From contig CM075987.1 of assembly GCA_038087875.1 (NCBI GenBank), forward strand, positions 19,904,001 to 19,968,000: 64,000 bases of DNA. Reading direction: 5' to 3'. Source of the DNA: Malacoraja senta (taxonomy: Eukaryota). Shown piece after piece: positions 2,760 to 58,477 of the stretch (position 1 is the stretch's first letter; the number at the start of each line of letters is the position of its first letter). Under the pieces are notes generated by a model. The model was not told where the DNA came from, did not search any database, and saw nothing but the letters and a program-made list of their open reading frames with translations. Both the position numbers and the translations under genes were made by a program.

Positions 2760-3950
2760 TAGTTATTGGCAGACAACATGGCTTTGTCCAAGGTAGGTCG
2801 TGACTTACAAAGTTGATCGACGTTTTTCAGGAGATAATGTAGGTGATCAATGATGGTAGGGCAGTGGATGTTGTCTACATGGTCTTTACTGAGGCATTTG
2901 CAAAGGTCTCTTATGGTAGGCTGATCCTGAATATTAAGATGCATGGGATCCACAGTGACTTGATCATTTGGATTCAAAATTGGCTTACACATAGAAGACC
3001 GAGGGTAATGGTTGAAATTATTCCGGGGGTTTGTGGCCAATGGAGTTCCCCAGGGATCAGTACTGGAACATCTGTTGTTTGTGATATAAATAAATGACTT
3101 GGACAAAAATGGAGATGGGTTGGTTAGTATGTTTGCAGAAGACACAAACATTGGTGGAGATGCAAATGATGAAGAAAGCTGTCAAATGATACAGCAGGTT
3201 ATATAGATCAGTTATAGATCCGGGTGGAGAAATGGCAGATAGAGTTAAATCTGAGCAAGTGTGAGTTGTTGCACTTTGGGAGGTCAAATGTAAGGGGAAA
3301 GTGTACAGTTGATGACAAGATGCTTAATGGTATTCATGCACAGAGGGATCTTGGGGGGAGGGGGTCACGTCCATTGGTCCCTGAAAGTAGCAAAACAGCT
3401 GAATAGAATGTAAAGAAGGCATATGATATGTTTGCTTTTCATTGGTCAGCAAGATGTTATAGAACTTTGGTCCAACCGCATTTAGTATATTGTGTACAGT
3501 CCCGTTCCAGAAAGGTAGTAGAGGCTTTGGAGAGGGTCAAGATGTGACTTACCAGAACGCTATGTGGATTAGAGAGTATTACCTATAAGGAGAGTTTGAA
3601 CACACTTGGATTGTTTTCTCTGGAGTGTTGGAGGGGAGACCTGAGAGAAGTATATAATATTATAAGAGGCTTAGACAGGGTAGATGGTCAGACTTTTTTG
3701 GGGGGGTTGGAAATATCAAATTACAGAGGGCATAGCTCGAAGGCTTGAGGGGAAAACTTTAAAGGAGATGTGTGGAGCAAGTCCTTTACACAGAGTGGTA
3801 GATGCATGGAGTGTGCTGTCAGGGGTGGTGGTGGAAGCCGATATGATATATTTTAGATAGTCACATGGATACGAGGGATAAAGGAGAAAGGATTAGTTCA
3901 AATTGACATCATGTTTGGCACAGATATTGTTGGTCAAAGGGCCTGTTTTT
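2760..3950 (+). mobile_element. Degenerate CR1 LINE (RT region to 3' end)
   Basis: Broken ORFs with AVDVVYM..AFAKVSYGRL, WIQNWL and KWQIELNLSKCELLHFGRSN. Confidence 0.8.
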
Positions 3951-3958
3951 GTGCTTTA

Positions 3959-4507
3959 AGGGCCTGTCCCACGGGCATGCGACTCCATGCGGCAAGCGCG
4001 ACCTAACCGCAAGCAGGGACCGTGCGGGGGCCGCACGGAGGTTGCGGGGCCGGTCCCACTTCGATCGCCGGAGCCGTATGGAGTTGGTCCCGACATTGCA
4101 CGGTGCTCCGAAAAACTGACACTGTTCAAAAATTCCGTGCGGCAACGGCCTGCCGCCCCACAGCGGCATCGAGGCCATGCGCGCCGCATCGACGGCCGTG
4201 CGCACCGCCTCAACGCCGGACGCAGCCGCCTCGAGGCCGTGCGCACCGCCTCGACGTCGGACGCAGCCGCATCGAGGCCGTGCGCACCGCCTCAACGGCC
4301 GTGCGCACCGCCTCGCCGCCATACGCACCGTCTTAACGTCACTCGACCTCCGCGCGGCCCCCGCTTCCGGTTTGGTAGCGCTTGCCGCATGCAGCCGCAT
4401 GCTGGTGGGACCGGCCCTGTACGGGGATCACTCGACCTCCGCGCGGCCCTCGCTTCCGGTTAGGTTGCGCTTGCCGCATGGAGTCGCATGCCCGTGGGAC
4501 AGGCCCT
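3959..4507. mobile_element. PIF/Harbinger-type MITE, GC-rich, with internal tandem repeats
   Basis: About 50-bp TIRs starting AGGGCCTGTCCCAC; TTA on both sides (3956-3958, 4508-4510). Confidence 0.88.
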
Positions 4508-7500
4508 TTACTTATCAATGTTCTAATATCTAGTTAACTCACATCCTCAAGGTTCCAATTTCTGAACTTCACCATATCCTCTCTGATGCGCTGTTTACAT
4601 GGCCATAGTTAAGGCACCAAAGACTACCATTAATATATCTGCTCCCCAGACCTTGGGGTTTGAATCTGTGCTCCAATCTGGCCCAAAATGTAGACCATTT
4701 CTCCCCATCAATAACCCTCACCCAAAAAAAGCACCAGGCTCATCTTAATTTTCTCATGCAAAATGTAGCCCACTAAGGAAAGTGTCCAATGAGCAGCCAT
4801 TTGGATGTTAGGTTCTACTAAATCTTGCTGTGGTGGATTCTCAATCAAAATAAATTCACAATCACCCTTGACGTGATCGATTGTCATGCCATGAAAAGAA
4901 ATGCAGTGATGAAATTATAAAGCAAAAACTCTGGATAAAGTAATAGCGTTGTTAAAAAGAGCTTGAAATTTGGCTGTAGTATCACAAGATAAATAAAGAT
5001 TTACTGCTGGTTCCAGAAGCCCATCCAAAATGGTTGTTCCCAACAGTTTTTAAAGCCAACTATGTCCTCAGAGACAATGTAAATATTGACACCCAAGGAA
5101 TAGACTGCTGCTTCTCTCTGGCTTCTGGTGCAGCCCATTGTTGAGGTTTATGTAATACAGTCAGTAGTCTCTGTATCACAAGGCTCAGGCATTAATACTT
5201 AAGTGTTGTCATTGCAGTCAAAACCCACTTATTAACATCTCACAATATCGGATTATTTATGAGGATCTAAACACATTCATTTTCTATTTAAATTCTGTTT
5301 TGCAATAATTTGGATAGCACTGCAACGAGGTTAAACATTTTAATTATTATCCTGACTTTTCCCTTTCAGCGTTGTGCTGATTAATATCCTAAAATGTGAA
5401 GTGTAAATTTCTCAAAACACAATGATTTGATTGTCAGAAGCAGCATGACTATTTGCTACCACCATAGCAACTTGACACAATATGAAAGTTGCGCATGCTT
5501 CAATGAAATGTTGTACTTGATTTAATATGAGGGATAGATCTGCAGCCCTTGAATGCAAGATCATGCGAGAAGGGCTGATTCAATTGCTATTGTTCCAACA
5601 GTCTTATACTGCAGTGTATTTGGCAATACTGCATGTGATGTCAACATAAACAGTAGTCACTAGCCAGATGACAAAAGTCCTGTTCTGGAAATAATCAGAG
5701 ATGTGAATGCAATTTTGTTCAAAATACCATCTCTTGACAAACAATCATATACATTTCAGGAGATGCTTCTCAATATTTTACTGGCCTGATATTTTACAGT
5801 CAAAATCTTATTATTCTTTTTTCATGTCTGGTAATTGTTGGCAATGCTCAGATCGTGAGTTAGATTTTCAGAATAAATCAAGTAGAAAATTACCAATCAA
5901 TCTAGTGGCTCTGAATGATACCTTCTGCAGAGAACTGCAATTGTTTCCATGTTTAGCTGGAATTATATAAAATAGATTAAGATAATACAAAATCACTTAA
6001 CTATGTGGATAGTTAGCCTGATTATGAATGGGCTTTGATCACATGTATATCAAATAATATAATAATTATGGTATTTTCAAACAACTTGTTTTTAGAAATA
6101 AATAATCTCTATTTAAATTGCTTTAAACATGCTGATGATGTTCCTTTTCAACTATATTCCCAATTCTGTGGTCTAAATTGAGATTTTTTTTCCCATAAAT
6201 TTCTTGAAGATTATAGAAATATTGGTTCTGGCAAAATGATTGGACTGGCTTCTTCCAGGAGTGAAAAGTATCCAAACAGTGGAGCAACATGTTTGTTGAG
6301 CTCACAATATAGATCAAGATGACTTGCACACCACGACAAAATACTGTTCTCTCGTAGGGATAAATGCACAGACACCCACAAACAGTTACTCTATCCACAC
6401 CCATATCCTACTTTCCCCTACAACCTCTACCCCACCAAACATAACTACAGGGATTAAGTACCTGATTATTTAGAGATGATGCTGCAAAGTTGGGCTAGGA
6501 TATTAAAAGCCACAACAAGCCTCTTAAACAAGAAAAGCACAAAACTACCATTGCAGATAAATATTACATTTTTCCATTTAGGTAATGTTTAAGATTGTTA
6601 TAAACAATTCTCCAAGCACAGCAGCATTCAAGTATGTTCTAATTTAAGGTACTTAACCTATTTAAGTGTGCTGAATGTCCTCTTTAAGGTAAACTCATGT
6701 GGGGGGGGGGGGGGGGGGGGGAAGACAAGCCTGTCCTTTTGCATGATTAAATAACAAAATCCTCGAGCATGGATGTGGTGATGCTACTCCAAACAAGATT
6801 TTTCACTGTACCTGTGCATACAATAGTAAACTCAAATTGAACTTGAACTTTTAAACCCAGAGCTACTGATGTATGCAAAACTGTTAAGATTTAATTTCAG
6901 AGTAAATTAATTAATAGGCTTTTGTTTTTAATTTATGAAAGTTATTTTTTATTATTTTAAAATATACAGGATTTTGAATTCATTTCTCATGATAACCTTT
7001 GAGTACCAAAGGAGTTGTTCAGTAGTACTTGTGATTGTGCTTGGCCTTGGAGCCTTAGTTAACATCAGACATATTTTCATTTTTTTTACAGTTAAAGTGG
7101 TTCAATAAAAAGTTTATAGGAAAAATGTTTTTTGGTTGCCAATGCCAAGTGTGTGGATGAGATTTGGCTGTTGGCTGCTATCACACTCTACTGGCATTGT
7201 GGACATTGAATATGCAGTGATGAGTATAACAAGTGTCCAAAACTCACTCAGACTTACACTAATGGTCAGCGATGCATTTCTCCCCGTTTGAATGTAAATT
7301 CCTTTTACACGATTGCCAAAGAAAACAAAATCACAGTCTATGTGGGTGCAGGGAGTCATTGGCAGCAATTCTTGGATTTCTTCATTTAACTGAACATGTG
7401 AATATCCAGATGTCTGCTTTTCTTCATTCTAAGTGCAAGTGCTGATAGCTGAGCAATTCTCATCACAAATTTTAGGCAATTATATATCCCATCCAGATCT

Positions 7501-7756
7501 TCTAGCTACCCATCTACCACTGTCTAATGAGGGACTAATTACTTTAATCCACATTACAACCAGATTTGTGTTGACTTTGAAGTTGTCTATAAAACTAGAA
7601 ATCCTCCATAACAATTGTTTTGACAAGCATTGAATAATCTGAATGGAATGCCATGACTGTCAAAATAAGATGTTCTTCTCTATTGCACCTTTATAATTGA
7701 ACGCAATATCCAGCCTGCCACATCTGTGAATTTGTCCAGCACAGACTAAAACACTA

Positions 7757-7848
7757 CACAAAGTGCTAGGGGAACTCAGTGGGTCTGGCAGCATCTGTGG
7801 AGGGAATGAACAGGTGATGTTTTGGGTTGGGATCTTTCTTCAGACTGA
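7757..7848 (-). mobile_element. Degenerate Penelope terminal-repeat fragment
   Basis: Reverse complement resembles the repeat at 53065-53159. Confidence 0.65.
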
Positions 7849-8339
7849 CCTAAAGTTATTTGTGTTTCCAGATTAAAGACAGCAAATGGGGCAGTACACT
7901 AACACAATGGAAATTTAACTGATACAGACTTCAATACAACGTTTGAATATGACAATAATGTCATTTTTAGGCCTTTTCACACATAATATTTGCCATGTCT
8001 AAAACTACAAGTGATATTTGTACCTTAGGAGTGATGTTCTTATTGACCATATTATTGACCTAGTAAGGCTGTAATTCAGGAGGTTTGAGAATTGGACTTA
8101 AAGTGATCATTTCCAGCAGCAGGCACAAAATTATGTTATTTTCTTCCAGTTGCGTTTGCATCCGAGTGAAATGTTTGGCTGTTTATCATGTTTTGTTTCC
8201 AAGTTTCTGTGTGGAAAAAATAAATTTAAGGCTGTTATATGACAGGACTTCGCCACATAACACATTGAAGTAGAGACTATTCAAGAGTTCCAATTTTAGT
8301 AAACATCATCTGGACTTCTTGCTATATTTATATCCCCTT

Positions 8340-8490
8340 AGATAGGGCTCTTGAAGGTAGCGGAGTCAGGGGATACGGGGAGAAGGTAGGAACAGGGTAC
8401 CCATTGTGGATGTTCAGCCATGATCGCATTGAATGGCGATGCTGGCTTGAGGGGCCGAATGGCCTACTCCTGCACCTATTGTCTATTGAT
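8340..8490 (+). mobile_element. CR1 3' tail fragment
   Basis: ggccgaatggcctactcctgcacctattgtctattg, the same 3' UTR as other CR1 copies. Confidence 0.8.
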
Positions 8491-8506
8491 AAAAATACTG
8501 TTTTGT

Positions 8507-8732
8507 GACCTGTCCCACTGCGGCGTCTTAATTTGCGAGTTTAGAAGAGTTTGCTCTCGACTCAAACTCACAGCATAGTCGACACGTGGTCCTAAGAGGT
8601 CACTGGAACTCTCCTTCATGCTCGAGGGAAGTTCCCGCATACTCCCAGCCTCAGTTTGGTCGAGGAGTTTCCGCGAGTAAAAATTGGTGGAGTGTGGTCG
8701 CTAGGCAGTCGAGGTAGCCGTCGAGAATCGTC
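8507..8732. mobile_element. Truncated Harbinger-type MITE (one end only)
   Basis: CCTGTCCCACTGCGGCG start; reverse complement of the right part of the MITE at 52448-53014. Confidence 0.75.
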
Positions 8733-8734
8733 CT

Positions 8735-9045
8735 GCACTACATGCAATAGTTTACTTTTTGAATACCCTATCTACCTTTGGTGGCACTTTCAATGAACTA
8801 TGTACCTGCACTCCTAGATCCCTCTGCACTACTACACTCCCCAGAGCCCTGCCATTCACTGTGTAGGTCCTGCCCATGTTAGACTTCCCAAAATGCACAC
8901 CTCACATTTCTCTGTATTAAATTTCATCAACCATTCCTCAGCCCATCTGCCCAAACTGTCAAGATCTTGCTGCAATTTTTGACAACCATCTTCACTATCT
9001 ACAATACCACCCACTTGAATGTCATCTGCAAACTTGCCAATCATG
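8735..9045 (-). mobile_element. CR1 RT fragment
   Basis: ORF 8856-9044: KFADD..VGGIVDSEDGCQKLQQDLD..W...WLM.FN..KCEV. Confidence 0.85.
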
Positions 9046-10670
9046 CTATGCCATGCCTAAGCAAAAACGGAATAAAAATCCTATTTTATTCTTTTGGTTT
9101 AACTACACCACATGGATAGCTGAAGAATTGGAAAGATCAACTCAGCTACATAAAACCTCTCTTCAGAATTTAAAATATGGTATGGATAATTCATAAAGAA
9201 AACGGGAACGGAAATAAATACCGATGTTCTCAAGTTCTGTTGGAACTTTCCAAATCCTTAAGCTGCCCCAGCCACCATTTTACTTTGTACCTTGTAATGT
9301 AAATAACTACATTACGCAGATACTTTGGAATAGAAAATGGCAAATGTTCTATATTTGCTGCAATTTACCTTCATTGTGACTTTCTATATCTTGACATTTT
9401 ATGTCACGTGCTACCTACAACAGGCAAAGGAACTCTGTGAATTTGATAATAAAATTAGCTGCAGATTGCATATTTTGCATGCATCCATCCAGCACTCAAT
9501 TGCATTGCCCATCCCAGTTTTTCTGATAACAGATCATTCACACACTAAGTCAGTCCTCATTTGCTCCTGGCATTTATATTTTGAAAACGTTTAATGTGTG
9601 GGTTAAAGGATCTTGGACATCTGTCCATACCTTGCCCCAGTGTTGTTGACTCTTGCAGGAATCAAGAACAGTTGGTTACAACAGTCTAATGAAATTAATG
9701 TATTATTAAGTTTGCTGCTTAAAATAAATGACAATTGAATTATGGGGCAATAGCTTATCCTCTTTCTCTTTGAACATTTCAAGTATTTTTAAATTGTTGA
9801 ACCCAGGCTGTTCAACATGGTAACTCTGGTGCAAAAGATAACTAATTCTGGTTCTTATAATAAATGAAGCTACTGAATGGAATTCTAGCTTTCTCATTTC
9901 CATTTCCAACAGAAAGAATATTACATAGAAACATAGAAAAATGGGTGCAGGAGTAGGCCATTCGGCCCTTCGATCCAGCACCGACATTCAAAATGACCAT
10001 GGCTGATCATCTAAAATCAGTACCCCGTTCTTGCTTTTTCTCCATGATTCCTTTAGGCCTAAGAGCTACATCTAACTCTCTTGAAAACATCCAGTGAATT
10101 GGCCTCCACTGCCTTCTATGGCAGAGAATTCCACAGATTCACTACTCTCTGGGTGATTTTTTCTTTCGTCATCTCAGTCCTAAATGGCCTACCCCTTATT
10201 CTTAAACTGTGACCCCTGGTTCTCGACTCCCCCAACATCAGGAACATTTTTCCTGCATCTAGCCTGTCCAATCCTTTAAGGATTTTATATGTTTCTATAA
10301 GATCCCCTCTCATCCTTCTAAATTCCAGTGAATACAAGCCCAGTCGACCCATTTTTTCACCATATGTCAGTCCCGCCAATCCGGGAATTAACCTGATGAA
10401 CCTACGCTGCACTCCCTCAATAGCAAGAATGTCCTTCCTCCAATTAGGTAAACAATACTGCACACAATACTCCAAGTGTGGTCTCACCAGGCCCCTGTAC
10501 AACTGCAGTAGGACCTCCTTGCTCCTATACTCAAATCCTCTCGCTATTAAGGCCAACATGCCATTTGCTTTCTTCACTGCCTGCTGTACCTGCATTCTTA
10601 CTTTCTGTGACTGATGTACAAGGACACCCAGGTCTCGTTGCACTTCCCCTTTTCCTAAGCTGACAACATT

Positions 10671-10796
10671 CTGAAGAAGGGTCTCGACCCAAAACGTCAT
10701 CCATTCCATCTCTCCAGAGATGATGCCTGTCCCGCTGAGTTGCTCCAGCTTGTTGTGTCTTTCTTCAGTTTAAACCAGCATTTGCAGTTCCTTCTT
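10671..10796 (+). mobile_element. Short Penelope terminal-repeat unit with hammerhead-like motif, inserted in CR1
   Basis: CTGAAGAAGGGTCTCGACCCAAAACGTC start; flanked by ACAACATTC (10663-10671) and ACACCATTC (10797-10805). Confidence 0.75.
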
Positions 10797-14675: not shown

Positions 14676-14729
14676 GGTGACCGGGGCCGTCCTGGTGCCC
14701 TGGGGCTGCAAGGACCAAAAGGCCGAAAG
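14676..14729 (+). CDS. COL27A1: Collagen exon, 54 bp (GDRGRPGALGLQGPKGRK)
   Basis: ttttgttgttttacag acceptor, AAG|gtaggc donor, six perfect Gly-X-Y triplets. Confidence 0.92.
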
Positions 14730-23070: not shown

Positions 23071-24321
23071 TAGGATTGAAATCTTCAGATTTCAAAGATA
23101 CCTTATTTTTAACAAATGACTTTTATTTGTTTACTTTTGAATATTTCTCATTTTGGCTCTTTGACATCTTTGTTCCTATTCCCTGAAGAACTAATAGAGA
23201 CATTTTCTGTAAAGTGGACATTTCTTCCTTTCTTCTCAAATTCAATATGGTCTCCATGGAAATCTCATCCATTCATTGGCTTTCATTTTACTCCTTCTAA
23301 ATGTGATGTCATTTGAGTGCATTGCAAAAGAAATAATGTTAACTTCACTCAAAGTACATATACCAAAGCAAATAAACCCAGTGGTATTTAATAGGTGTTT
23401 TTAAAACATTTTGCAGAGCTTATATTTGTATATAAGTTTGTGTTTATACATAACTTAAAAGCTTTGGGATTGCTGCCTCTACCATAGTGAAATACTAGAC
23501 ATGCACATGCTGTTTCTGGTCCTAATGTTATGACAGTCGATTCATCTGTTTATTATTTCCTGAGATCTTATTTTAACAGACAATTCAATGGAAATCAGTG
23601 AATTAATTATTGACTACAAGCATTGATCTGAGCAATAGAATTTGAGAAGTATCTGAAACATTTTTTTCTGGAGCATTGCCTAAGATTATCGAATGCAAAA
23701 TTTATTGCAATTGGCATTCAGTAATATGAAATTGCTAATGATCACACTAGAGAATTTATATAAATCTGCGAGAGCTTCCCCGTGAACATCACAAATTCCT
23801 GTTTGCCCGTGAATGAATTCCATTGATAATTGCTGGCAAAGGGGCTAATTGGATCCTCTTAATGGAGTGCTGGCGGATAATGAATGTCACTTGAAAACAT
23901 CTGACTAGTTAATAAATTACTTCTTTATAGCCTGTTGGGATTTTACAGTTATCTAATTTTGATATTTCATTGGCCAACTGAATTCTTAGTTACCGAGCTA
24001 ATTAACTATTTCACTTTATTTCATCATAGAATCATGGAACTGTTCTGGCAGAGAAGGAAGCTATGTACCTTCAAGTAGAATAATCCTATTTGTCCAGTTT
24101 CCTTTTAAAAAAAAACCAAGAATTATTCACTAATATGTCTGCCCAAATTTTCAAAGAGTTTGCTTTTATATTGTGAAACCTATTATATATTAGACAATTT
24201 AACATGATCTAACATCATACATTTTGCTAAAAACAGTTTGAGAGAAATTTCTGCTTATTAATTATTTTAAGGACTACAACAATTATAGGGAGCTTGTAAA
24301 TGATCAAATAATATTAAGAGA

Positions 24322-24405
24322 TAGACAAAAATGCTGGAGAAACTCAGCGGGTGAGGCAGCATCTATGGAGCGAAGGAAATAGGCGAAGTTTTGGGTCGAG
24401 ACTCG
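24322..24405 (-). mobile_element. Penelope terminal-repeat fragment (second subfamily)
   Basis: Reverse complement reads TCTCGACCCAAAACTTCGCCTATTTCC..GCTGAGTTTCTCCAGCATTTTTGTCT; TATTAAGA on both sides. Confidence 0.7.
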
Positions 24406-25059: not shown

Positions 25060-27163
25060 CAGTGCCCTCCATAATGTTTGGGACAAAGACCCATCATTTA
25101 TTTATTTGCCTCTGTACTCCACAATTTGAGATTTGTAATAGAAAAAATCACATGTGGTTCAAGTGCACATTGTCAGATTTTAATAAAGGCCATTTTTATA
25201 TATTTTGGTTTCACCATGTAGAAATTACAATAGTGTTTATACATAGTCCCCCCATTTCAGGGCACCATAATGTTTGGGACACAGCAATGTCATGTAAATG
25301 AAAGTGGCCATGTTTAGTATTTTGTTGCATATCCTTTGCATGCAATGACTACTAGCAGTCTGCAATTCATGAACATCACCAGTTGCTGGGTATCTTCTCT
25401 GGTGATGTTCTGCCAGGCCTGTATAGCAGTCATCTTTAGCTTGTGCTTGTTTTTGGGGCTAGTCCCCTTCAGTTTTCTCTTCAGCATATAAAAGGCATGC
25501 TCAAATGGGGTCAGATCGGGTGATTGACTTGGCCACTCAAAAATTGAGCTAATATTTTCATTTTGAAAAACTCCTTTGTTGCTTTAGCAGTATGTTTGGA
25601 ATCATTGTCTTGCTGCCAATGAGTTTTGAGGCATTTGTTTGAACTTGAGCAGATAGGATGTGTCTATACACTTCAGAATTAATTATGCTACTACCATCAG
25701 CAGTTGTATCATCAATGAAGATAAGTGAGCCAGTACCTTCAGCAGCCATACATGCCCAATCCATAACACCCCCACCACCGTGTTTCACAGATGAGGTGGT
25801 ATGCTTTGGATCTTGGGCAGTTCCTTCTCTCCTCCATACTTTGCTTTTGCCATCACTCTGATATAAGTTAATCTTCATCTCATCTGTCCACAAGACCTTT
25901 TTCCAGAACTGTGGTTGCTCTTTTAAGTACTTCTTGGCAAACTGTAACCTGGCTATCCTATTTTTGCGGCTAACCAGTGGTTTGTATCTTGCCGTGTAGC
26001 CTCTGTATTTCTGTTCATGAAGTCTTCTGCGGACAGTGGTCATTGACAAATCCACACCTGACTCCTGAAGAGTGTTTCTGATCTGTCGGACAGGTGTTTG
26101 GAGATTTTTCTTTATTATAGCAGAATTCTTCTGTCATCAGCTGTGGAGGTCTTCCTTGGCCTGTCAGTCCCTATACGATTAGTAAGCTCACCAACGCTCT
26201 CTTTCTTCTTAATGATGTTCCAAACAGTTGATTTTGGTAAGCCTAAGGTTTGACTGATGTCTCTAACAGTTTTATTCTTGTTTCTCAGTCTCATAATGGT
26301 TTCGTTTCTTTGACTTTATTGGCACAACTTTGGTCCTCATGTTGATAAACAGCAATAAAAGTTTCCAAAGGTGATGGGAAGACTGGAGGATAGACTGGGT
26401 GCTGAGAGCTCTCTTAAGGGGCTGTCCCACTTGGGCGACCTAATTGGCGAGTTTAGAAGAGTTTGAAAAAATGACATGTTGAAGACTTCCTTCGACTATG
26501 TAGAAGACCTCCTTCGACTATGTTGAAGACCAGCTTCGACTAGCTACGACTAACTTCGGGAAAATTGGACACCAAATAGTGGAGAGTGAAGACGATCTCC
26601 TTCGATCTCCTTCGATCTCCTTCGACCTCCCTTAGACCTCCCTTCGACCTCCCTTCGACCTCCCTTCGACTATGATGAAGACTATCTATGGCTACCTTCG
26701 ACTACCTTCAACTACCCTCGATTACCTACGACTAACATGCTGACCTACTACGACTAAACCTACGAGTAAAAAGTATCGACTTTTTCCATAGCGACTTTTT
26801 ACTCGTGGGCATTTTTTAACATATTGAAAAAAACGCCGCGACCTAGCTGAGGCCTCGAGTACGCGGAGACCACTCTCGAGCATGAAGGAGAGTTACGAAG
26901 ACCTCCTACGACCTCGTGTCGACCATGCTGCGAGTATGAGTCGAGGGCAAACTCGCCAGAACTCGCGGATTAGGTCGCCCAAGTGGGACAGGCCCTTTAT
27001 ACCTGCAGTAAGGAGGCAATTAAACACACCTGAGCAATTACAAACACCTGTGAAGCCATGTGTCCAAAACATTATGGTGCCCTGAAATGGGGGGACTATG
27101 TAATAAACACAGCTGTAATTTCTACATGGTGAAACTAAAATGTATAAAATGGCCTTTAATAAA
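25060..27163 (-). mobile_element. Tc1 transposon (IR/DR type), one end truncated, with nested MITE
   Basis: TA|CAGTGCCCTCCATAATGTTTGGGACA end; the matching inner repeat is inverted at ~27060-27163; ORF 25558-26055 has KVLWTDE.K and VKHGGG; probable ATG at 26340 (minus). Confidence 0.88.
26417..26996. mobile_element. Harbinger-type MITE nested in the Tc1
   Basis: AGGGGCTGTCCCACTTGGGCGACCTAAT TIR; TTA at 26414-26416 and 26997-26999; internal CCTTCGA/CTACGA arrays. Confidence 0.9.
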
Positions 27164-32300: not shown

Positions 32301-32392
32301 GACAAAGTGCTGGAGTAACTCAGTGGGTCAGGCAGCAGCCCCAGAAAACATGGACAGGTGATGTTTCGGGTCAGGACCTTTCTTCGGACTGA
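32301..32392 (-). mobile_element. Penelope terminal-repeat fragment
   Basis: Reverse complement TCAGTCCGAAGAAAGGTCCTGACCCGAAACATCACC..CTGAGTTACTCCAGCACTTTGTC. Confidence 0.7.
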
Positions 32393-34137: not shown

Positions 34138-34191
34138 GGGGAACGTGGACCAGATGGAAGCCGAGGTGCCAAAGGTTATCCTGGCAGGCAG
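34138..34191 (+). CDS. COL27A1: Collagen exon, 54 bp (GERGPDGSRGAKGYPGRQ)
   Basis: cctcctctttctaacag acceptor, CAG|gtgcag donor; GAKGYPGRQ matches recalled COL27A1. Confidence 0.92.
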
Positions 34192-34594: not shown

Positions 34595-35146
34595 AGGGGC
34601 TGTCCCACTTGGGCGACCTAATTGGCGAGTTTAGGAGAGTTTGAAAAAATGTTATGTTGAAGACCTCCTTCGACTATGTAGAAGACCTCCTTAGACTATG
34701 TTGAAGACTAGCTTCGACTAGCTTCGACTAACTTCGGGAAAATTGGACACCGAATAGTGGAGAGTGAAGACGACCTCCTTCGATCCCCTTCGACCTCCCT
34801 TCGACAATGATGAAGACTATCTATGACTACCTTCGACTTCCTTTGACTACCTTCGACTACCCTCGATTATCTACGACTAACATGCTGACCTACTACAACT
34901 AAACCTACGAGTAAAAAAAGCATCGATTTTTTCCATGGCGACCTTTATTTACTCGCGGGCATTTTTCAACATGTTGAAAAATACGCCGCGACCTAGCTGA
35001 GGCCTTGAGTACATGGGGACTACTCTCGAGCATGAAGGAGAGTTACAAAGACCTCCTACGACCTCGCGTCGACCATGCTGCGAGTATGAGTCGAGGGCAA
35101 ACTCGCCAGAACCCGCGGATTAGGTCGCCCAAGTGGGACAGCCCCT
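34595..35146. mobile_element. Harbinger-type MITE, same subfamily and orientation as 26417-26996
   Basis: Same TIR and interior; TTC on the left and TTA on the right. Confidence 0.9.
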
Positions 35147-35366
35147 TTAAACAGTCTGAGAACAAATGATCAACATTTCTACCCTAACTTTCAAAGCTTA
35201 ACATAAGGATGATATTAGTGAATATGTTGAATGCTCTTTATCGAATTTGCGTGCGAAAATGTAATAAATTTTTTTAATGTACTCTTGCTTGTCTGCTATT
35301 ACACAAAGCTGAGTAATCCATTTTTTAGAGTAATTATATTTATTAAGCAGCAGTCTCACTTTGTCT

Positions 35367-35489
35367 TTCTCGACCCGAAACGTCACCCATTCCTTCTCTC
35401 AAGAGATGCTGCCTGTCCCGCTGAGTTACTCCAGCAGTTTGTTTCTACCTTTGATTTAAACCAGCATCTGCAATTCTTTCCTACACAAC
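35367..35489 (+). mobile_element. Short Penelope terminal-repeat unit with 16-bp TSD
   Basis: CAGTCTCACTTTGTCT (35351-35366) and CAGTCACACTTTGTCT (35490-35505) flank TCTCGACCCGAAACGTCACCCATTCC. Confidence 0.8.
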
Positions 35490-42950: not shown

Positions 42951-43993
42951 TCTTCATCAGGATTCTTCGATACCATCAGCAGTGAATTCACCCTATGAAG
43001 AGTGTGGGCAATAAAAATTACAGTTATGCAATTTGTTACTGAACTGCTTGGATTGGTATGTTTGTCTCTGTCGAGAATTAATGTTCAGATATTTTGTTGG
43101 CATTAAGTCATTTAGCATTAAATCAGGCAGTACCTAGTTCAGTACCAAATGAGTTAATGCCAATAAAATATCTGATTCGGGCATATGGCCTCTAGCTTCT
43201 TCCTGTCTTCCTCATTGCAATATGTGAATGACAGTGAGGGTCAAGTTGTTCCATGCACTGCAGTTGGTTTGTGATTCTCTATGGAAACCATTGGAGTAAA
43301 AATGTGTACATTGCAGCTTATTGTTTGTGAACTTGCAATGGGATTTTCTGGCCACTAAACAACTAGATTCACTTTCATTTTCACAGTCAATGCAAGTTAT
43401 TGTCACCTTAAATATATTATGAAGAAGCTGTGAGTTGATGGAACTCATCTACATGTTTGCACTTGCATGTCTTTTCTAAGCAGATGACTGACTTCTGTCC
43501 AAGAAGTAAAGTTATTTGCATCTCAAACTGTTTAATTTTCTCACTGAAAAAAGAAATCTCAACTGGATCCAATCCAAAATTACTTGCCTGCAGTATGTTG
43601 TGCGTTTATATCGTGTGGCCTCTGCCCAGTGGGTGGACAATCTTTTGCAATGAACATCTCTTCCATCTTTGCATCTTGATGGTACCATGTATACATCATT
43701 CTTAATATCTCTACCAACTGTACCCATTTTGTGACCTGTCTGAAACAATTCAGTAAGAGCGAGAGGCAGAGTTGACCTTTCAACAGAAACGCTCTGTTTG
43801 CAATTTTACATATGTTCTTTTTACTGTTGTATGATATTGTGCGTGGGGGATTTGTGCATATGGAATTAATGTACTGCAACAAAATCCTCTTCATTCCATC
43901 CCTTCTTCAGAGAGGTTTGTGCTGACAATGTGCTGACAATTAGTGGTCTAACAATCAAGTTGTAATTACTTACTTTCATCTGTGAGTATGTAA

Positions 43994-44120
43994 TCTAAAG
44001 AAGAGATGCGACCTGAAACATTCTCTGTCCATTCCCTCTACAGATGCTGCCTGAACCACTGAGTTCCTCTAGCACTTTGTGTTTTGCTCAAATTCCAGTA
44101 CCTGCAGTTCTTGTATCTCT
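43994..44120 (+). mobile_element. Old Penelope terminal-repeat unit
   Basis: CTAAAGAAGAGATGCGACCTGAAACATT..AGATGCTGCCTGAACCACTGAGTTCCTCTAGCACTTTGTG. Confidence 0.65.
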
Positions 44121-50100: not shown

Positions 50101-50360
50101 CATGGATCGTACGGTAGGCTTTTCATATTTTTGTTTCTAGAAGCAGTGTGCATCAGACAACTTGATCCCTGGTGTGAGGGTATGTGCCCTTGGACTACAT
50201 CGTGGAAGCCAGCACCATGCAGTCCATGGGCATATACACTTGTCTCAAGGCTTTGTTCATCACCTGCATCACCTCGCTGCATCGTTGGAACCAGATAAAT
50301 CACTGACATCCCTGAATTACTACAAGATCCACTGATGGCACTTCTCTCCTCTTTCTACAG

Positions 50361-50414
50361 GGCTTCATAGGCCCACCAGGTTTAATGGGGCTTTCGGGGG
50401 CAAATGGAAAGCAA
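50361..50414 (+). CDS. COL27A1: Collagen exon, 54 bp (GFIGPPGLMGLSGANGKQ)
   Basis: cttctctcctctttctacag acceptor, CAA|gtaagt donor, six triplets. Confidence 0.92.
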
Positions 50415-52096
50415 GTAAGTCTTTCTCTCTTTCATTTTCTCTCTCGATTTCTGTAACATTTAAACATAAATAAGCAAGTAATATTTACAATCTGATTTTT
50501 TTTCAAGCTTTCTGAAATGAAACTAATTTGCAATCTGTTTACCCATGAACAGCACAACTGCTTTCAGTTGCATTTTATTTCTCGCTTGGTGTTTCACCAT
50601 GGTAAACATTCTGTGTGTTGCTTCCCTAATATGTAATGTAATTTAATACCTCCACCAAATTGGAATAGGATCAGAAAATAAGCAAGCATAAAATATGAGA
50701 TGTTTAACTGAATGGTAGGCTTACTTCTCTGATAGACTACATGTAAATTCTATCAACACATGCTACTTTTGGCTCAGTCACAGACAGGTAAGATCATTTT
50801 ACAAAACCTAATCCTTCTAAGATGATTCCCAGGCATCTGTTTAAGGGCATACCTAGAATTAATTGTTGCCTAGATTTCTCTTGCTTTCCACTTAATGAGG
50901 ATAACACTTTTCCTGTTCCACCATATCTTTCCTCACTCAGTGAATCTGGGGTTCTTTACTATTATTTTCCAAATTAGTCTGACAGTGGTATTGGAATATA
51001 ACAAAAGTAATATGTACATCAAACTTTTTCCATTTATATATCACTTTGTATGTCGCAAACATCCACTGCAAGAGTGTAACTTAAGAAAATTTGACTGCCC
51101 CCGGATAAGGAGATGCTAGGGCAGAAGATTAAAAATCTGGTGAATGAAGAGATTTTAAGGAGGTTCTTAAAGGAGAAAATAACGATTTCCAGAAGGGGAG
51201 AGATTTCCAGATTTAAGACATGGTATTTGAAGGCATGTAGGTATCAAAAGCTCAGCAACTAAATTTGGTGACAATCAAGAGGCCAGAATTTTAGCAGGGC
51301 AAATATCTCTGAGGACTATAGAATTTCAAATTACAGAGGTAGTGAGAGAAGAGAACATGTGCAGATTTGAAAACATGGATATGTAATTAAACATTGAGGT
51401 GCTATTCAATCAGGAGTAGGTCAGCATGCAGATGGGTATTTGGTAAATAAGATGATGCAAGTTAGGGTGCAGACAGTAAAGATAAGACCCTGCACATGTG
51501 AATATGGTGCACAAGTGCTATGAAGTAATTTTTAACCATTGTCCAGTATGTTCTTACAATTAGAAGGTAGACACAAAATGCTGGAGTAACTCAGTGGGTC
51601 AGGCAGCATCTCTGGAAAGAAGGAATGGGTGACGTTGACACCTGGAGCAGCGGGTACTGAAGATGAGGTTGGAGGAGGTGCAAGTGAACCTCAATCCTCC
51701 AACATTTTCGCCACCTCCAACGGGATCCCACTACAGGCCACATCTTCCCATCTCCACCTCTTTCTGCTTTCTGCAGAGACCGTTCCCTCCGAAACTCCCT
51801 AGTCAACTCGTCCCTCCCCTCCCAAACCACTCCCTCCCCAGGTACTTTCCCCTGCAACCTGTCCCTTTACCTCCCCCCTCAACTCCATCCAAGAACCCAA
51901 ACAGTCTTTCCAGGTGAGGCAGAGATGCACTTGCACCTCCTCCAACCTCATCTACTGTATCCGCTGCTCCAGGTGTCAACTTCTCTACATCGGCGAGACC
52001 AAGCGCAGGCTCGGTGATCGTTTCGCTGAACACCTCTGCTCAGTCCGTCTTAAGCTACATGATCTCCCGGTGACTCAGCACTTCAACTACCCCTCC

Positions 52097-52237
52097 AGGC
52101 TGGAAGATTGCAACCTTCATGTGGTCCGCCCTGTTTCGACAAATGCAATCAACCCGGCGTGCACAATCAAATAAGATCAAATAGAACAAGTTGTCCAACA
52201 ACTTTAGGCTGTGCACACCATACGCAAGAAGAAGAAG
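52097..52237 (+). mobile_element. 141-bp retroposon 3' end with (AAG)n tail nested in Penelope
   Basis: Ends CCATACGCAAGAAGAAGAAG; flanked by AACTACCCCTCC and AACTCCTCCTCC; absent from the Penelope copy at 57735-58477. Confidence 0.7.
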
Positions 52238-52447
52238 AACTCCTCCTCCCATTCCCAATCTGAACTTTCTGTCCTGGGCCGCCTCCTTTGTTGGAGTGAG
52301 GCCCAACGCAAATTGGAGGAACAGCACCTCATATTTCGCTTGGGTAGTTTACACCCCAGCAGTTTGAACATTGACTTCTCTAACTTCGGATAGCCCTTGC
52401 TTTCTCTCTCCGTCCCCTCCCCATTCCCAGTTCTCCCACTAGTCTTA

Positions 52448-53014
52448 AGGGGCTGTCCCACTGCGGTGACCTAATTCGTGAGTTAAGAGTGTCTTCGACC
52501 TTCAAGCTCGAGAGAGGAAGGGAAAAGACAGCTGCACAGTGTATGGTAAGTCCTTTAGAGAGTGCGAGGGGGAGAGATGGAGAGAGAAGGGGGGGAGAAG
52601 GAGTGGAGACACTTTTAAGAAGTATAATAAAGTTTAGCGGGCATTTAACGTACCGGTTGGTTTTCCTTGGTCCTGAAAACTCCAATGAGCCAATCAAAAT
52701 GCCCGGTCAGCGAAGGAGATTGCCTACGGCTGCTCTCGACTGCCTGTAACTAAATAGCGACCCCACTACACTGCACTAAGAATTTAAAAAAAACATACCG
52801 ACCAAATTTTACTCACGGAAAAATGTTCAACATGCTGAAAGATTTTCCGCGACCTAGCTGAGGCCACGAGTATGCGGGAACTTCCCTCGAGCATGAAGGA
52901 GAGTTCCAGTGAACTCACAAGACCTAGGACCACGTGTCGACCATACTGCGAGTTTGAGTCGAGGGCAAACTCTTCTGAACTCGCGGATTAGGTCGCCGCA
53001 GGTGGACAGCCCCT
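52448..53014. mobile_element. Harbinger-type MITE nested in the Penelope 3' UTR
   Basis: AGGGGCTGTCCCACTGCGG TIR; TTA at 52445-52447 and 53015-53017. Confidence 0.88.
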
Positions 53015-53064
53015 TTACTGTCTCCGACTACATTCGATCTTTGTCCCGCCTCCTCCCCTGACAT

Positions 53065-53100
53065 CAGTCTGAAGAAGGGTCTCGACCCGAAATGTCACCC
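53065..53100 (+). ncRNA. Minimal type I hammerhead-ribozyme-like motif in the Penelope terminal repeat
   Basis: CTGAAGA-A-GGGT(CTCG)ACCC-GAAA-TG-TC: core boxes and stem II intact, ACGT palindrome changed to ATGT, stem I weak. Confidence 0.55.
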
Positions 53101-54269
53101 ATTCCTTTTCTCCAGCGATGCTGCCTCACCCGCTGAGTTACTCCAGCATTTTGTGTCTATGTTCATACAATTGACTGACCAACAATATGTTAACCATGGT
53201 CAAACAAAATTACCATATCAATGAAAATCTGCAATAAAAAACAGAAACTGCCACAAATACAGTAAAACTGATTCAGCCTCTAGCTCACCAGATGATGTTT
53301 GCCACACTCCCTTCTGACTCATGGGGAAAGTCTACGAATCCGGCATCACCAAGGTCCCAAGTTTGGTGGATTATGTGTATTACACTGTATTTGTTTATAT
53401 TGTTCTCAAGAAGTTGTATAAAGCCACCTGGAGGTTATTATAGTTTAATTCAAGGAGTTTGGTGCAAACCATGGAAACTGAGCATTTGTGCTTGTGGTTT
53501 ACAGCATTACATTTTTTCAGCAAAATATTGAATTTGTTACTTCCTGTTTATCCATTTTTTATGACATATCGCTTATTGATATGATAGTTCTGAATTCCTT
53601 TGTTACAGGTGCAAGAAATGTTCTGTAAATAGATTAACACTTGTGTCTAGGTGGTTCCTAAAGGTATATTCCAATATACTAAACTTATAAGAAGAAAGAT
53701 AATTCATTGAATTTTAAAACAAAAACAGAACATTCTGGAAATACTCAGCACGTCAGGCAACATGTGTGGGAAGAGAAACAAAATAAACCTTGTGTCAGAA
53801 CTGACTGTGGCTCTTTCTCTTATCACAGGTGTGGCCTGGTCCGTTGAGTATTTCCAGCATTTTCTGTTTTGTACTAGATTTCTAGCATCTGCAATTCTTT
53901 TTCCAATTTTCTCTGAACTTTGAACTGTTTATATTGCATTTCATGTCACAGCTAACACAGCTAATAACTGTAACCGTATATTTGATTGAAATTTTTTTGC
54001 AAATATGTTTGATATAGAAATGTTTTTAATGGTTTACAGATTTTCATCAGGATGTTGGTGACATGCACCAAAACTGCTGATTTTTGAAGAATGTAATCAT
54101 AGAGTGTATATCTAGCGCACTCTGCCTGTGATACCATGCACTGGTATCTCATGGTTCCATGAAAAATAAGAAGGCCTTGACTCTTGATAAACATGCAATG
54201 GTAGCTGCCAACACATGATGAATAAAATCTTACATTTTGCACTCTGATTTTTATTTCTCATCTTTGCAG

Positions 54270-57734: not shown

Positions 57735-58477
57735 AGGAAGTAACTCATCCCTTCCCTCCCAAACCACCCCCTCCCCAGGTACTTTCCCCTGCAACCACAG
57801 GAGATGCATCACCTGTCCTTATACCTCCTCCCTTGACCCAGTCCAAGGACCGCAACATTCTTTTCAGGTGAAGCAGAGGTTCACTTGCACCTCCTCCAAC
57901 CTCATCTACTGTATCCGCTGTTCCAGGTGTGGACTCCTATATATCGGTGAGACCAAGCGCAGGTTCGGCGATTGTTTCGCTTAACACCTCCGCTCAGTCC
58001 GCCTAAACCTACCTGATCTCCCGGTTGCTCAACACTTGAACTCCCCCTCCCATTCCCACACTGACCTTTCTGTCCTGGGCCATCTCCATTGTCAGAGTGA
58101 GGCCCAGCGCAAATTGGAGGAACAATACCTCATATTTCGCTTGGGTAGCTTAGACCCCAGCAGTGTGACTATTGACCTCTAATTTCAAGTAACCCTTACT
58201 TTACCTGTCTCTCCATCCCTCCCCCTTCCAGTCTGACTGTCCTTGATTACATTTTATCTCTGTTTGCTTTGTTGTTTTCTTCTAGCTAACAATGATCTAT
58301 TCTACATTTTCCTTGATCTCCACCTCCTTTGATGTCTCGTTCTCACACCTTACACTTCCTTATCTCTGTATCTCACCCTCCCCTGATACTCAGTCTGAAG
58401 AAGGGTCTCGACCGGAAACGTCACCCATTCCTTCTCTCCAGCCTGTCCCGCTGACTTATACTGCCATTTTGTGTCTA
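57735..58477 (+). mobile_element. Penelope-like retroelement 3' part with perfect 14-bp TSD
   Basis: GIY-YIG peptide FTCTSSNLIYCIRCSRCGLLYIGETKRR; ACCTCTTTTTGTTT at 57721-57734 and 58478-58491. Confidence 0.92.
58391..58426 (+). ncRNA. Minimal hammerhead-ribozyme-like motif
   Basis: CTGAAGAAGGGTCTCGACCGGAAACGTC; one substitution at the base of stem II (58414). Confidence 0.5.

What the first reader, a model, noticed from the sequence alone, without database searches (positions are those of the whole stretch)
53065..53159. Hammerhead-ribozyme-like motif in the Penelope terminal repeat, repeated through the collagen introns
Seen: the 3' repeat of both GIY-YIG elements has the consensus CTGAAGA A GGGT-CTCG-ACCC GAAA CG TC. 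This is the CUGANGA box, a 4-bp stem II, the GAAA box and a palindromic ACGT in place of stem III before a UC site. Copies lie at 10671, 35367 (partial), 43994, 53069 and 58395 on +, and near 7757, 24322, 32301 and 51568 (partial) on -. Established: Penelope-like elements carry minimal type I hammerheads with a palindromic stem III that are proposed to work as dimers, and an extra base after A9 occurs in some natural hammerheads. Inference: this is the ribozyme, or its relic, of a cartilaginous-fish Penelope family. Caveat: stem I pairs by only about 2 bp (GT/AC) here.
Basis: partly seen in the sequence, partly recalled or inferred. Interest (0 to 1): 0.8.

Follow-up and report, generated by a model that had tools for sequence, protein, structure and literature searches.

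The report
Penelope-element minimal hammerhead motif, relic copies
The repeat is the end piece of a very abundant Penelope-like jumping gene and begins with the small hammerhead ribozyme motif that such elements are already known to carry, here mostly as decayed copies in collagen-gene introns.

Summary
In the host genome the 31-mer occurs 103,333 times with up to 2 mismatches, against 0 for the reversed control.

The module lies downstream of a GIY-YIG ORF. It flanks an RT plus GIY-YIG element as a ~104-nt direct repeat, so it is a Penelope-like pseudo-LTR or "tail".

The motif has the published hallmarks of PLE minimal hammerheads: a base between A9 and G10.1, a G10.1-C11.1 pair, a palindromic C15.2-G16.2, copies on opposite strands, and a short helix I (PMC4209133).

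Several results limit the claim:
- Rfam hammerhead models do not match.
- No compensatory stem II subfamily exists.
- A stronger alternative helix competes with the hammerhead fold.
- RNA reads show no ends at the predicted cut.
- Each of the three best window copies has a hit in a critical base.

Verdict: a genuine PLE-type hammerhead motif, a new member of a known kind. Catalytic activity is unproven and probably weak.

The parts
53065..53160 (+). Whole pseudo-LTR/tail module of the PLE copy: hammerhead motif, conserved tail and ragged 3' end
   Evidence: blastn and alignment. Read and contig depth jumps about 50-fold over 53054-53165 in 4 runs.
53069..53075 (+). CUGAAGA box (C3-A9)
   Evidence: These columns are 92-99% conserved in 74 unbiased full copies.
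53076..53076 (+). Extra A between A9 and G10.1
   Evidence: It is A in 98 of 100 listed genome matches. The feature is named in PMC4209133.
53077..53088 (+). Stem II GGGU/ACCC capped by CUCG
   Evidence: 84.9% of cells are paired in 68 copies. The family B variant is GGGU-UUCG-GCCC.
53089..53096 (+). GAAA box, then UGU-C. The consensus is CGU-C, which gives the palindrome A15.1-C15.2-G16.2-U16.1 followed by C17. The predicted scissile bond is 53096|53097.
   Evidence: 53093 T>C in 75-90% of reads and contigs in 4 runs, so the window base is a mutation.
53067..53068 (+). Helix I 5' strand (G2.2, U2.1). It pairs only with A1.1 and C1.2 at 53097-53098.
   Evidence: Pair counts are UA 41 / UG 21 and GC 50 / GU 6 of 68.
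51803..52174 (+). GIY-YIG endonuclease ORF fragment of the 5'-truncated PLE copy
   Evidence: Pfam PF01541, E 4.3e-5. Translation.
57811..58180 (+). Second PLE fragment, 85-87% identical to 51857-52379
   Evidence: the repeat finder families D4 and D17.
58391..58477 (+). Module copy with C11.1>G and an 8-nt deletion in the tail
10667..10760 (+). Module copy with G12>A. It has the long tail form, which continues to about 10800.
7756..7847 (-). Older diverged module copy
24321..24402 (-). Module copy that is 5'-truncated inside stem II
32302..32391 (-). Older diverged module copy (CCGAAGA, AGGUCCUGACCC)
35368..35447 (+). Module copy that is 5'-truncated inside stem II, long tail form
43991..44082 (+). 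Strongly diverged module copy
51568..51636 (-). Module copy that lacks the CUGA box and stem II

Best explanation
Identity. The 97-nt repeat is the pseudo-LTR or 'tail' of a hugely amplified Penelope-like retroelement (PLE). The element has RT plus a C-terminal GIY-YIG endonuclease. A Cx4CxxC linker suggests the Neptune type.

Motif. The first 28 nt are a minimal type-I hammerhead of the kind already described for metazoan PLEs:
- core C3-A9 = CUGAAGA;
- one bulged A;
- a 4-bp helix II (GGGU/ACCC or GGGU/GCCC);
- G12-A14;
- no helix III hairpin. Instead there is the self-complementary A15.1-C15.2-G16.2-U16.1, so two copies would build a shared 4-bp helix III;
- cleavage would fall after C17 (U17 in family B), at 53096|53097.

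Shown here: the motif, its place at the very 5' edge of the unit just upstream of the ORF, its duplication at the 3' end of insertions, ragged 3' ends in two classes, head-to-head inverted partners, and constancy of the core across families and across runs from four organism labels.

Inferred from published PLE work:
- RT starts internally in the downstream unit of a read-through or tandem transcript, so every insertion ends with HHR plus tail.
- The very many solo modules are run-off cDNAs of the 5'-terminal ~100-140 nt.
- Cleavage, if it occurs, needs a dimer and probably the element's protein.

Odds. That the motif is a true PLE hammerhead homologue: about 0.8. That consensus dimers cleave detectably in vitro without protein: about 0.4. 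The window copies are mutated relics.
For: - Motif and copies.
- Abundance: 103,333 31-mers with up to 2 mismatches. 83,523 exact matches to CTGANGA-N-GGG-N6-CCC-GAAA-YRT, reversed control 0. 267,893 exact matches to the tail 16-mer.
- PLE context: GIY-YIG in the window; 65,208 first-look candidates for that ORF; L044 has the layout module - ORFs with RVT_1 and GIY-YIG - module, and the direct repeat is only ~104 nt.
- PLE-type insertion signatures: 21 head-to-head pairs against 4 tail-to-tail among 173 module hits. Two 3'-end classes, with the long tail in 43 of 129 copies. Tandem element arrays with ~2.44-kb spacing (listing).
- Conservation: in 74 unbiased full copies the core columns are 92-100% conserved at non-CpG sites, and identity falls to about 55% within 6 nt upstream.
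- Family-level changes inside the motif are confined to loop II, to A>G at the 3' strand of stem II (U-A to U.G), to C17>U, and to A1.1>G, which still pairs with U2.1.
- Other organisms: in 4 runs with different organism labels no variant reaches 10% in 53069-53088 among those listed.
- Literature, passages and sections read: PMC4209133 lists the bulged base, G10.1-C11.1, the palindromic 15.2-16.2, motifs on opposite strands, and a 2-bp helix I in D. virilis. PMC11167929 places an Anolis PLE HHR at the pLTR-ORF junction, with internal RT initiation and protein-assisted cleavage. PMC8557442 describes inverted 5'-truncated copies and tails.
Against: - No Rfam hammerhead model matches. The whole window was scanned at gathering score, 601 nt at E <= 10, and 31 kb holding many modules at E <= 10.
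- Helix I is only 2 bp.
- No compensatory covariation in stem II. Genome counts are T24/A29 35,513, T24/G29 23,134, C24/G29 96 and C24/A29 1,132. The pair-restoring C-G form is therefore rarer relative to its parent (0.4%) than the mismatching C/A form (3.2%).
- Positions a hammerhead leaves free are just as fixed: N7 is A in 96 of 100 and the bulge is A in 98 of 100 listed matches. Three other tail blocks are equally conserved. The constancy may therefore reflect young masters or other constraints.
- An alternative 10-bp helix, GAAGAAGGGU with ACCC(A)UU(C)CUUC, is favoured: -10.1 kcal/mol for the monomer, and a dimer MFE of -23.3 against -12.7 for the hammerhead-type dimer. It fits the copies as well as the hammerhead pairs do: 87.3% against 86.9% of cells paired.
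- The window module does not fold better than shuffles (z 0.28).
- PolyA RNA reads (11,795 laid) show no place where molecules begin or end, and no depth step at 53096/53097.
- 5' ends of genomic copies do not cluster at the predicted cut: only 5 of 144 start at model positions 39-44.
Confidence: 0.8

Rival explanations
1. The motif descends from a PLE hammerhead but is no longer used as a ribozyme. On this reading the 5' part of the module is kept for another role. Candidates are the alternative GAAGAAGGGU/ACCC..CUUC hairpin, binding of the RT/EN protein, or promoter or start-site function.
For: - The alternative helix is about 6-10 kcal/mol better than the hammerhead fold and equally compatible with 68 copies.
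- HHR-free positions are as invariant as core positions.
- No read ends at the cut site.
- Copy 5' ends lie 3 nt before CUGA, not at the scissile bond (table 7).
- Literature: HHR mutants did not affect insertion in vitro and no reads ended at the site in Anolis (PMC11167929). Naiad PLEs proliferate without an HHR (PMC8557442). 8 of 9 Xenopus retrozyme dimers did not cleave (preprint 10.64898/2026.07.22.740005).
Against: - The family-level substitutions inside the motif are exactly those a hammerhead tolerates: loop II, U-A to U.G, and C17 to U17.
- The ACGU palindrome is kept in both large families although it is a CpG.
- HHRs are reported as universal in EN+ Penelope/Neptune-type PLEs.
Confidence: 0.3
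2. The resemblance is due to chance. The boxes CUGAAGA and GAAA around a short palindrome happen to occur in a SINE-like repeat that has nothing to do with ribozymes.
For: Rfam models are silent. Helix I is 2 bp. There is no covariation.
Against: - The repeat is demonstrably the pseudo-LTR of a GIY-YIG/RT element, which is exactly where PLE hammerheads are reported.
- Four features that are not part of the box definition are all present: the bulged base, G10.1-C11.1, the palindromic 15.2-16.2 and an H at position 17.
- The motif sits at the sharp 5' edge of the conserved module.
Confidence: 0.07
3. The solo modules are an independent non-autonomous, retrozyme-like or SINE-like family. On this reading they are transcribed on their own and mobilised in trans by the PLE, rather than being by-products of PLE insertion.
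For: - At least 267,893 tail anchors against 65,208 first-look GIY-YIG candidates.
- A discrete 5' end 3 nt before CUGA, with heterogeneous flanks, in reads and contigs from four runs (table 7).
- Module-to-module joints of 97 nt (table 5) and short tandem arrays.
- Retrozymes derived from PLE pLTRs are described in vertebrates, including one chondrichthyan.
Against: - Full elements carry the same module with the same subfamily markers.
- Internal RT initiation near the 5' end of any PLE transcript would give the same solo copies.
- Tandems are a minority: 18 of 173 hits are adjacent in the same orientation, and most of these belong to two derived satellites.
- No circular RNA evidence was sought.
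Confidence: 0.25

Closest known systems
Minimal hammerhead ribozymes (min-HHR) of metazoan Penelope-like elements (Cervera & De la Pena 2014, PMC4209133; Lunse et al. 2017 is cited there and in PMC6765202 but was not readable here)
   Same: - Located in the pseudo-LTR of an RT plus GIY-YIG element.
- CUGANGA and GAAA boxes.
- A base between A9 and G10.1, and a G10.1-C11.1 pair.
- No helix III hairpin, but a palindromic 15.2-16.2 that implies dimers.
- Mostly solo copies, some on opposite strands close together.
- Genome-wide abundance.
   Different: - Helix II is 4 bp here; the paper describes 6-8 bp as typical.
- Helix I is 2 bp, as in the D. virilis variant, rather than 4-5 bp.
- Sequence variability is very low, not the 'extreme' variability reported.
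- No compensatory changes were seen.
- Copy number is about ten times the largest figures quoted there (4,000-9,000).
Poseidon PAc element of Anolis carolinensis (Frangieh et al. 2024, PMC11167929)
   Same: - The HHR lies at the pLTR-ORF junction.
- Insertions end in a tail a short way downstream of the HHR, with several end points.
- Structures that fit priming on both strands.
- No RNA-seq ends at the HHR site.
   Different: - In PAc the ORF starts inside stem II. Here the open frame starts about 130 nt after the motif.
- Protein-assisted cleavage and internal RT initiation were shown for PAc. They are only inferred here.
Non-LTR retrozymes of animals (Cervera & De la Pena 2020, listing only; Li et al. 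2026 preprint, results section and passages read)
   Same: - Short non-coding units derived from PLE pLTRs with a type-I HHR.
- Solo and tandem forms occur.
- Reported in one chondrichthyan.
   Different: - Here most copies are dispersed monomers with PLE-type tails and inverted partners.
- The tandem arrays seen have 50-nt and 66-nt units. The first has a decayed palindrome and the second lacks the CUGA box and stem II.
Rfam Hammerhead_1 / Hammerhead_3 and related models
   Same: The core boxes.
   Different: No match even at E <= 10. Those models expect a helix III hairpin and a longer helix I.

Membership tests
Hammerhead ribozyme (core definition) | C3 U4 G5 A6 N7 G8 A9 box | tested here: met
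   CUGAAGA at 53069-53075. 92-99% conserved in 74 copies.
Hammerhead ribozyme (core definition) | G12 A13 A14 box directly after helix II | tested here: met
   GAA at 53089-53091. A13 and A14 are 99-100% conserved. G12 is at 71% because of CpG decay. G12 is lost in the 10671 copy.
Hammerhead ribozyme (core definition) | Helix II closed by G10.1-C11.1 | tested here: met
   GGGU/ACCC, with one extra A before G10.1. GC 44, GU 9, AU 4, other 11 of 68 at that pair.
Hammerhead ribozyme (core definition) | A15.1-U16.1 pair followed by H17 (not G) | tested here: met
   A..U then C (U in family B).
Hammerhead ribozyme (core definition) | Helix III formed within the molecule | tested here: not met
   There is no loop between 15.2 and 16.2. 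Only an intermolecular ACGU/ACGU helix is possible.
Hammerhead ribozyme (core definition) | Helix I of several base pairs | tested here: not met
   Only U2.1-A1.1 and G2.2-C1.2 pair; the next positions are A/C and C/C.
Hammerhead ribozyme (core definition) | Match to curated covariance models (Rfam) | tested here: not met
   No hammerhead hit at gathering score or at E <= 10.
Hammerhead ribozyme (core definition) | Site-specific self-cleavage | not testable with these tools
   The only indirect look found no excess of read ends at 53096/53097 in polyA RNA reads.
PLE minimal hammerhead (Cervera & De la Pena 2014) | Lies in the pseudo-LTR of an RT plus GIY-YIG element | tested here: met
PLE minimal hammerhead (Cervera & De la Pena 2014) | [quoted passage not shown] | tested here: met
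   A at 53076. It is 97% conserved in 72 copies and is A in 98 of 100 listed matches.
PLE minimal hammerhead (Cervera & De la Pena 2014) | Palindromic positions 15.2-16.2 | tested here: met
   The consensus is C-G (79% and 82%, the rest being CpG decay products). The window copy has U-G at 53093-53094.
PLE minimal hammerhead (Cervera & De la Pena 2014) | Consensus families rich in covariations and compensatory changes | tested here: not met
   Only pair-preserving one-sided changes were seen (U-A to U.G). The C-G form has 96 copies against 23,134 for its parent. Pair counts are barely above shuffles.
PLE minimal hammerhead (Cervera & De la Pena 2014) | Two motifs available for a dimer (tandem pLTRs, or close copies on opposite strands) | tested here: met
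   L044 has two modules 3.9 kb apart. Arrays with ~2.44-kb spacing appear in the listing. There are 21 head-to-head pairs.
Non-LTR retrozyme | Tandem repeats of units each holding a complete HHR, giving circular RNA | tested here: inconclusive
   97-nt module-to-module joints were seen in a few contigs and in 3 reads. A 50-nt array lies at L033:91-492. Circular RNA was not examined.

The most novel reading that the evidence does not exclude
The roughly 100-140-nt module may be a hammerhead-headed retroposon in its own right. On this reading its RNA begins three bases before the CUGA box and is copied by the PLE enzyme from an internal start site. It would have reached several hundred thousand copies, the largest hammerhead-motif population reported for a vertebrate genome. 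The two mutually exclusive folds (hammerhead dimer against the GAAGAAGGGU/ACCC..CUUC hairpin) would act as a switch between processing and templating. Head-to-head pairs would then be a large source of hairpin RNAs in host introns.
Probability: 0.12. Interest if true: 0.6.

Novelty: new member of a known kind. Interest (0 to 1): 0.35.

Why it matters
The finding places a cartilaginous-fish genome among the animals whose Penelope-like elements carry minimal dimer-type hammerheads, and at a scale of 10^5 motifs. That makes it a convenient natural data set for two questions: which positions such ribozymes tolerate, and whether cleavage leaves any trace in insertion boundaries. Here it does not. 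For annotation, the practical point is that these intronic copies are retroelement tails and not host regulatory RNAs.

Tried and rejected
- Rfam scans found no hammerhead family: the whole window at gathering score, 601 nt at E <= 10, and five loci totalling 31 kb at E <= 10.
I worked instead from the 274 kb already held and from whole-genome pattern counts.
- Covariation in stem II was tested with a 2x2 genome count. It gave no support.
- The count of structure pairs could not separate the hammerhead pairs from the alternative helix.
- The window module does not fold better than shuffles.
- The look-up of sequencing runs listed no holder on record as RNA. One raw RNA run from the same study as a DNA holder was laid instead.
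- The search of earlier findings returned nothing.
- Lunse et al. 2017 (PMC5785218) is not held, so its consensus and species list could not be compared.
- Supplementary figures and tables of PMC4209133 were not opened. They may already list cartilaginous-fish motifs.
- Two searches for the topic in print were thin. 'hammerhead ribozyme' + Penelope + shark gave 1 paper (listing only, not opened). Penelope + elasmobranch + 'transposable elements' + genome gave 4 papers (listings only), none about ribozymes by title or abstract start.
- I considered a type-III or upstream cleavage reading to explain the 5' end at AGU-CUGA. I rejected it because no hairpin I precedes the box.
- I considered a permuted hammerhead across the 66-nt satellite junction. 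I rejected it because CUGAGUU lacks G8 and A9.
Full report
THE OBSERVATION

Window 53069-53099 (+) reads CTGAAGAAGGGTCTCGACCCGAAATGTCACC.
- 7756-7847 (-)
- 10667-10760 (+)
- 24321-24402 (-)
- 32302-32391 (-)
- 35368-35447 (+)
- about 43991-44082 (+)
- 51568-51636 (-)
- 53065-53160 (+)
- 58391-58477 (+)

Two copies start inside stem II, and one lacks the CUGA box and stem II.

This is not chance. Shuffles give 0 matches. In the host genome (1.94 Gb) the 31-mer occurs 103,333 times with up to 2 mismatches, against 0 for the reversed control.

The window lies in a collagen gene:
- three 54-bp Gly-X-Y exons on the + strand;
- a full-score mir-455 at 50167-50250.

WHAT THE REPEAT IS

The ORF at 51803-52174 is a GIY-YIG endonuclease (Pfam E 4.3e-5, above the cut-off). 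Searching it against the genome gives 65,208 first-look candidates. All 150 that were scored have E <= 1.3e-38.

Ten loci around long open frames were fetched. In most of them the module lies about 100-300 nt downstream of the GIY-YIG frame.

L044 shows the full layout:
- the module at 1633-1726;
- open frames from 1764 to 5445;
- the module again at 5565-5656.

Further details of L044:
- The frames hit RVT_1 (E 4.6e-6) and GIY-YIG (E 4.2e-4), both just below Pfam's cut-offs.
- The direct repeat is only about 104 nt, at 92% identity.
- A Cx4CxxC linker precedes the GIY-YIG part. By the passages read in PMC8557442, this points to the Neptune/Nematis type rather than Penelope/Poseidon. This assignment is an inference.

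The module is therefore the pseudo-LTR or 'tail' of a Penelope-like element.

ANATOMY ACROSS COPIES

An nhmmer profile found 181 module hits in the 274 kb held. After dropping two loci that overlap others, 174 hits remained; 30 were the copies selected by the search pattern and 144 were not.

Seventy-four full-length unbiased copies were tabulated:
- Non-CpG core columns: CUGAAGA 92-99%, the bulged A 97%, A13 and A14 99-100%, U16.1 96%.
- The three CpGs (loop II/stem II, C11.1-G12, C15.2-G16.2) show the usual C>T and G>A decay.
- Upstream of the GU that precedes the box, identity falls to about 55% within six bases. The motif therefore sits at the sharp 5' edge of the conserved module.
- Three other blocks are as conserved as the core: AGATGCTGC, CTGAGTT and CTCCAGC.

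Read and contig loose ends support a 5' end at this edge (table 7). Many copies begin at 53066, three bases before CUGA, with unrelated sequence upstream. Others continue into the element's C-rich 3' UTR.

The 3' ends fall into two classes:
- a ragged end around GTGTCTA(C/T)C;
- a form about 35 nt longer, present in 43 of 129 copies. The 5' copy in L044 continues into this longer form.

Among 173 hits (one duplicate locus dropped), adjacent copies are arranged as follows:
- 21 head-to-head inverted pairs;
- 4 tail-to-tail pairs;
- 18 same-orientation neighbours, most of them in two derived satellites.

These are the signatures described for PLE insertions: 5' truncation, an inverted 5'-truncated partner, and tails (PMC8557442 passages). 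They also fit internal initiation of reverse transcription with priming on both target strands (PMC11167929 passages).

IS IT A HAMMERHEAD?

Read as a type-I hammerhead, the motif has:
- C3-A9 = CUGAAGA;
- one extra A;
- helix II GGGU/ACCC with loop CUCG;
- G12 A13 A14;
- A15.1 C15.2 G16.2 U16.1, which is self-complementary;
- C17;
- a helix I of two pairs only (U2.1-A1.1 and G2.2-C1.2).

Cervera & De la Pena 2014 (parts 1 and 2 read) name four features as arguments that PLE min-HHRs are real. Three are met here:
- the base between 9 and 10.1;
- the G10.1-C11.1 pair;
- the palindromic 15.2-16.2.

The fourth, consensus families rich in covariations and compensatory changes, is not met (see the evidence against, below).

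They also describe dual motifs on opposite strands, mostly solo copies, and a D. virilis variant with a 2-bp helix I. Activity in vitro was low and seen only with dimers or an extended helix III.

Two large families exist here:
- A: GGGU-CUCG-ACCC ... GUC-ACC;
- B: GGGU-UUCG-GCCC ... GUU-GCC.

With the first loop base read as C or T, exact genome counts are 35,513 for A at position 29 and 23,134 for G at position 29.

The differences between the families inside the motif are all of kinds a hammerhead tolerates:
- loop II;
- U-A to U.G in stem II;
- C17 to U17;
- A1.1 to G1.1, which still pairs with U2.1.

In runs carrying four different organism labels, no variant of 10% or more is listed within 53069-53088. 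The window's T at 53093 is the minority state there: C is read in 75-90%. Nine variant rows were not shown by the tool.

EVIDENCE AGAINST A WORKING RIBOZYME

- Rfam's hammerhead models give nothing, even at E <= 10. This is expected for a motif without a helix III hairpin, but it remains a failed test.
- There is no compensatory covariation. The pair-restoring C24-G29 form has 96 copies, 0.4% of its U.G parent. The mismatching C24/A29 form has 1,132 copies, 3.2% of its parent. This looks like neutral decay at different ages.
- Positions a hammerhead leaves free are equally fixed. N7 is A in 96 of 100 and the bulge is A in 98 of 100 listed matches to a descriptor that has 83,523 exact matches.
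- A competing fold is thermodynamically favoured. A 10-bp helix with two bulges forms between GAAGAAGGGU and ACCC(A)UU(C)CUUC. The monomer MFE is -10.1 kcal/mol. The dimer MFE is -23.3, against -12.7 for two stem II hairpins plus the ACGU helix.
- That alternative helix fits 68 aligned copies as well as the hammerhead pairs do: 87.3% against 86.9% of cells paired, both barely above shuffles.
- 11,795 polyA RNA reads were laid. There is no place where molecules begin or end and no depth step at 53096/53097. Most of these reads probably come from old monomeric copies inside host transcripts, so this bears only on such copies. The same negative result is reported for Anolis.
- The 5' ends of genomic copies do not pile up at the predicted cut: 5 of 144 start at model positions 39-44. 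A peak of 13 at position 33 comes mostly from a 66-nt satellite.
- The three best window copies each carry a change at a critical base: C15.2>U at 53093, G12>A in the 10671 copy, and C11.1>G in the 58395 copy.

MECHANISM PROPOSED

Shown:
- the element's layout;
- the motif at the extreme 5' end of the repeated unit and again at the 3' end of insertions;
- the two tail end classes;
- the inverted partners;
- the tandem arrays with ~2.44-kb spacing (listing).

Inferred from PAc (PMC11167929):
- The enzyme binds near the 5' region of a unit and starts reverse transcription internally.
- On read-through or tandem transcripts this yields copies that end with HHR plus tail.
- On any transcript it can also run off after about 100-140 nt. 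That would explain at least 267,893 tail anchors.

Inferred from the motif:
- Two motifs pair through ACGU to give a dimeric hammerhead that cuts after C17 or U17.
- Cutting is weak and probably protein-assisted.
- The alternative helix holds monomers inactive.

My odds are about 0.8 that this is a true PLE hammerhead homologue and about 0.4 that consensus dimers cleave in vitro without protein.

COMPARISON AND NOVELTY

This is a member of the known class of PLE minimal hammerheads. It differs from the published description in four ways:
- a short helix II (4 bp);
- very low sequence variability;
- no compensatory changes;
- a copy number about tenfold above the 4,000-9,000 quoted for coelacanth and Xenopus.

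A 2026 preprint reports PLE-derived retrozymes in one chondrichthyan. I found no paper in the library that describes this motif in elasmobranchs. However, the supplements of the 2014 paper were not opened and the 2017 Lunse paper was not readable.

The finding is correct and well observed, but it is ordinary for the field.

Noticed in passing
window 50167-50250 (+): Full-length mir-455 precursor (115.1 bits, E 3.9e-27). It lies about 110 nt upstream of a 54-bp Gly-X-Y exon at 50361-50414. Further 54-bp collagen exons are at 14676-14729 and 34138-34191.
   Followed up: partly
L015:2834-3031, L017:362-554, L018:739-988, L030:1693-1978: A 66-nt tandem satellite derived from the module. The unit runs from GAAACGTCACC to ..GCACTCTGT and lacks the CUGA box and stem II. 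It was seen in 4 of the 30 3-kb loci.
   Followed up: partly
L033:91-492: A tandem array of about 50-nt units, each made of the hammerhead half of the module. In each unit the ACGU palindrome has decayed to ACAU.
   Followed up: partly
L050:3152-3239 and L050:5647-5798: Head-to-head module pairs form long hairpins that draw sub-threshold miRNA-model hits (mir-722 E 1.7e-5; MIR2118 E 7.3e-5). They may be sources of hairpin RNA. RNA reads also show an opposite-strand joint, 53064 with 53111, in 285 reads.
   Followed up: no
G000:C1:3872250-3892415 and 4002239-4035111: Same-strand family B motifs spaced about 2.44 kb apart. These look like long head-to-tail arrays of shortened PLE units.
   Followed up: no
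window 52826-53017; also 26815-27002 and 34965-35152: A different repeat (80-97% identity between copies) sits between the GIY-YIG fragment and the module in the first PLE copy. It is also present in contigs of the other organisms' runs. Not identified.
   Followed up: no
window 4161-4327: A GC-rich tandem repeat of about 21 nt (five overlapping 64-nt copies in the repeat finder family D11).
   Followed up: no
module columns 70-105 (window about 53119-53150): A conserved stem, AUGCUG with CAGCAU, encloses a 20-nt loop just before the ragged 3' end (91% of cells paired in 68 copies). It is a candidate for the RT entry structure.
   Followed up: partly
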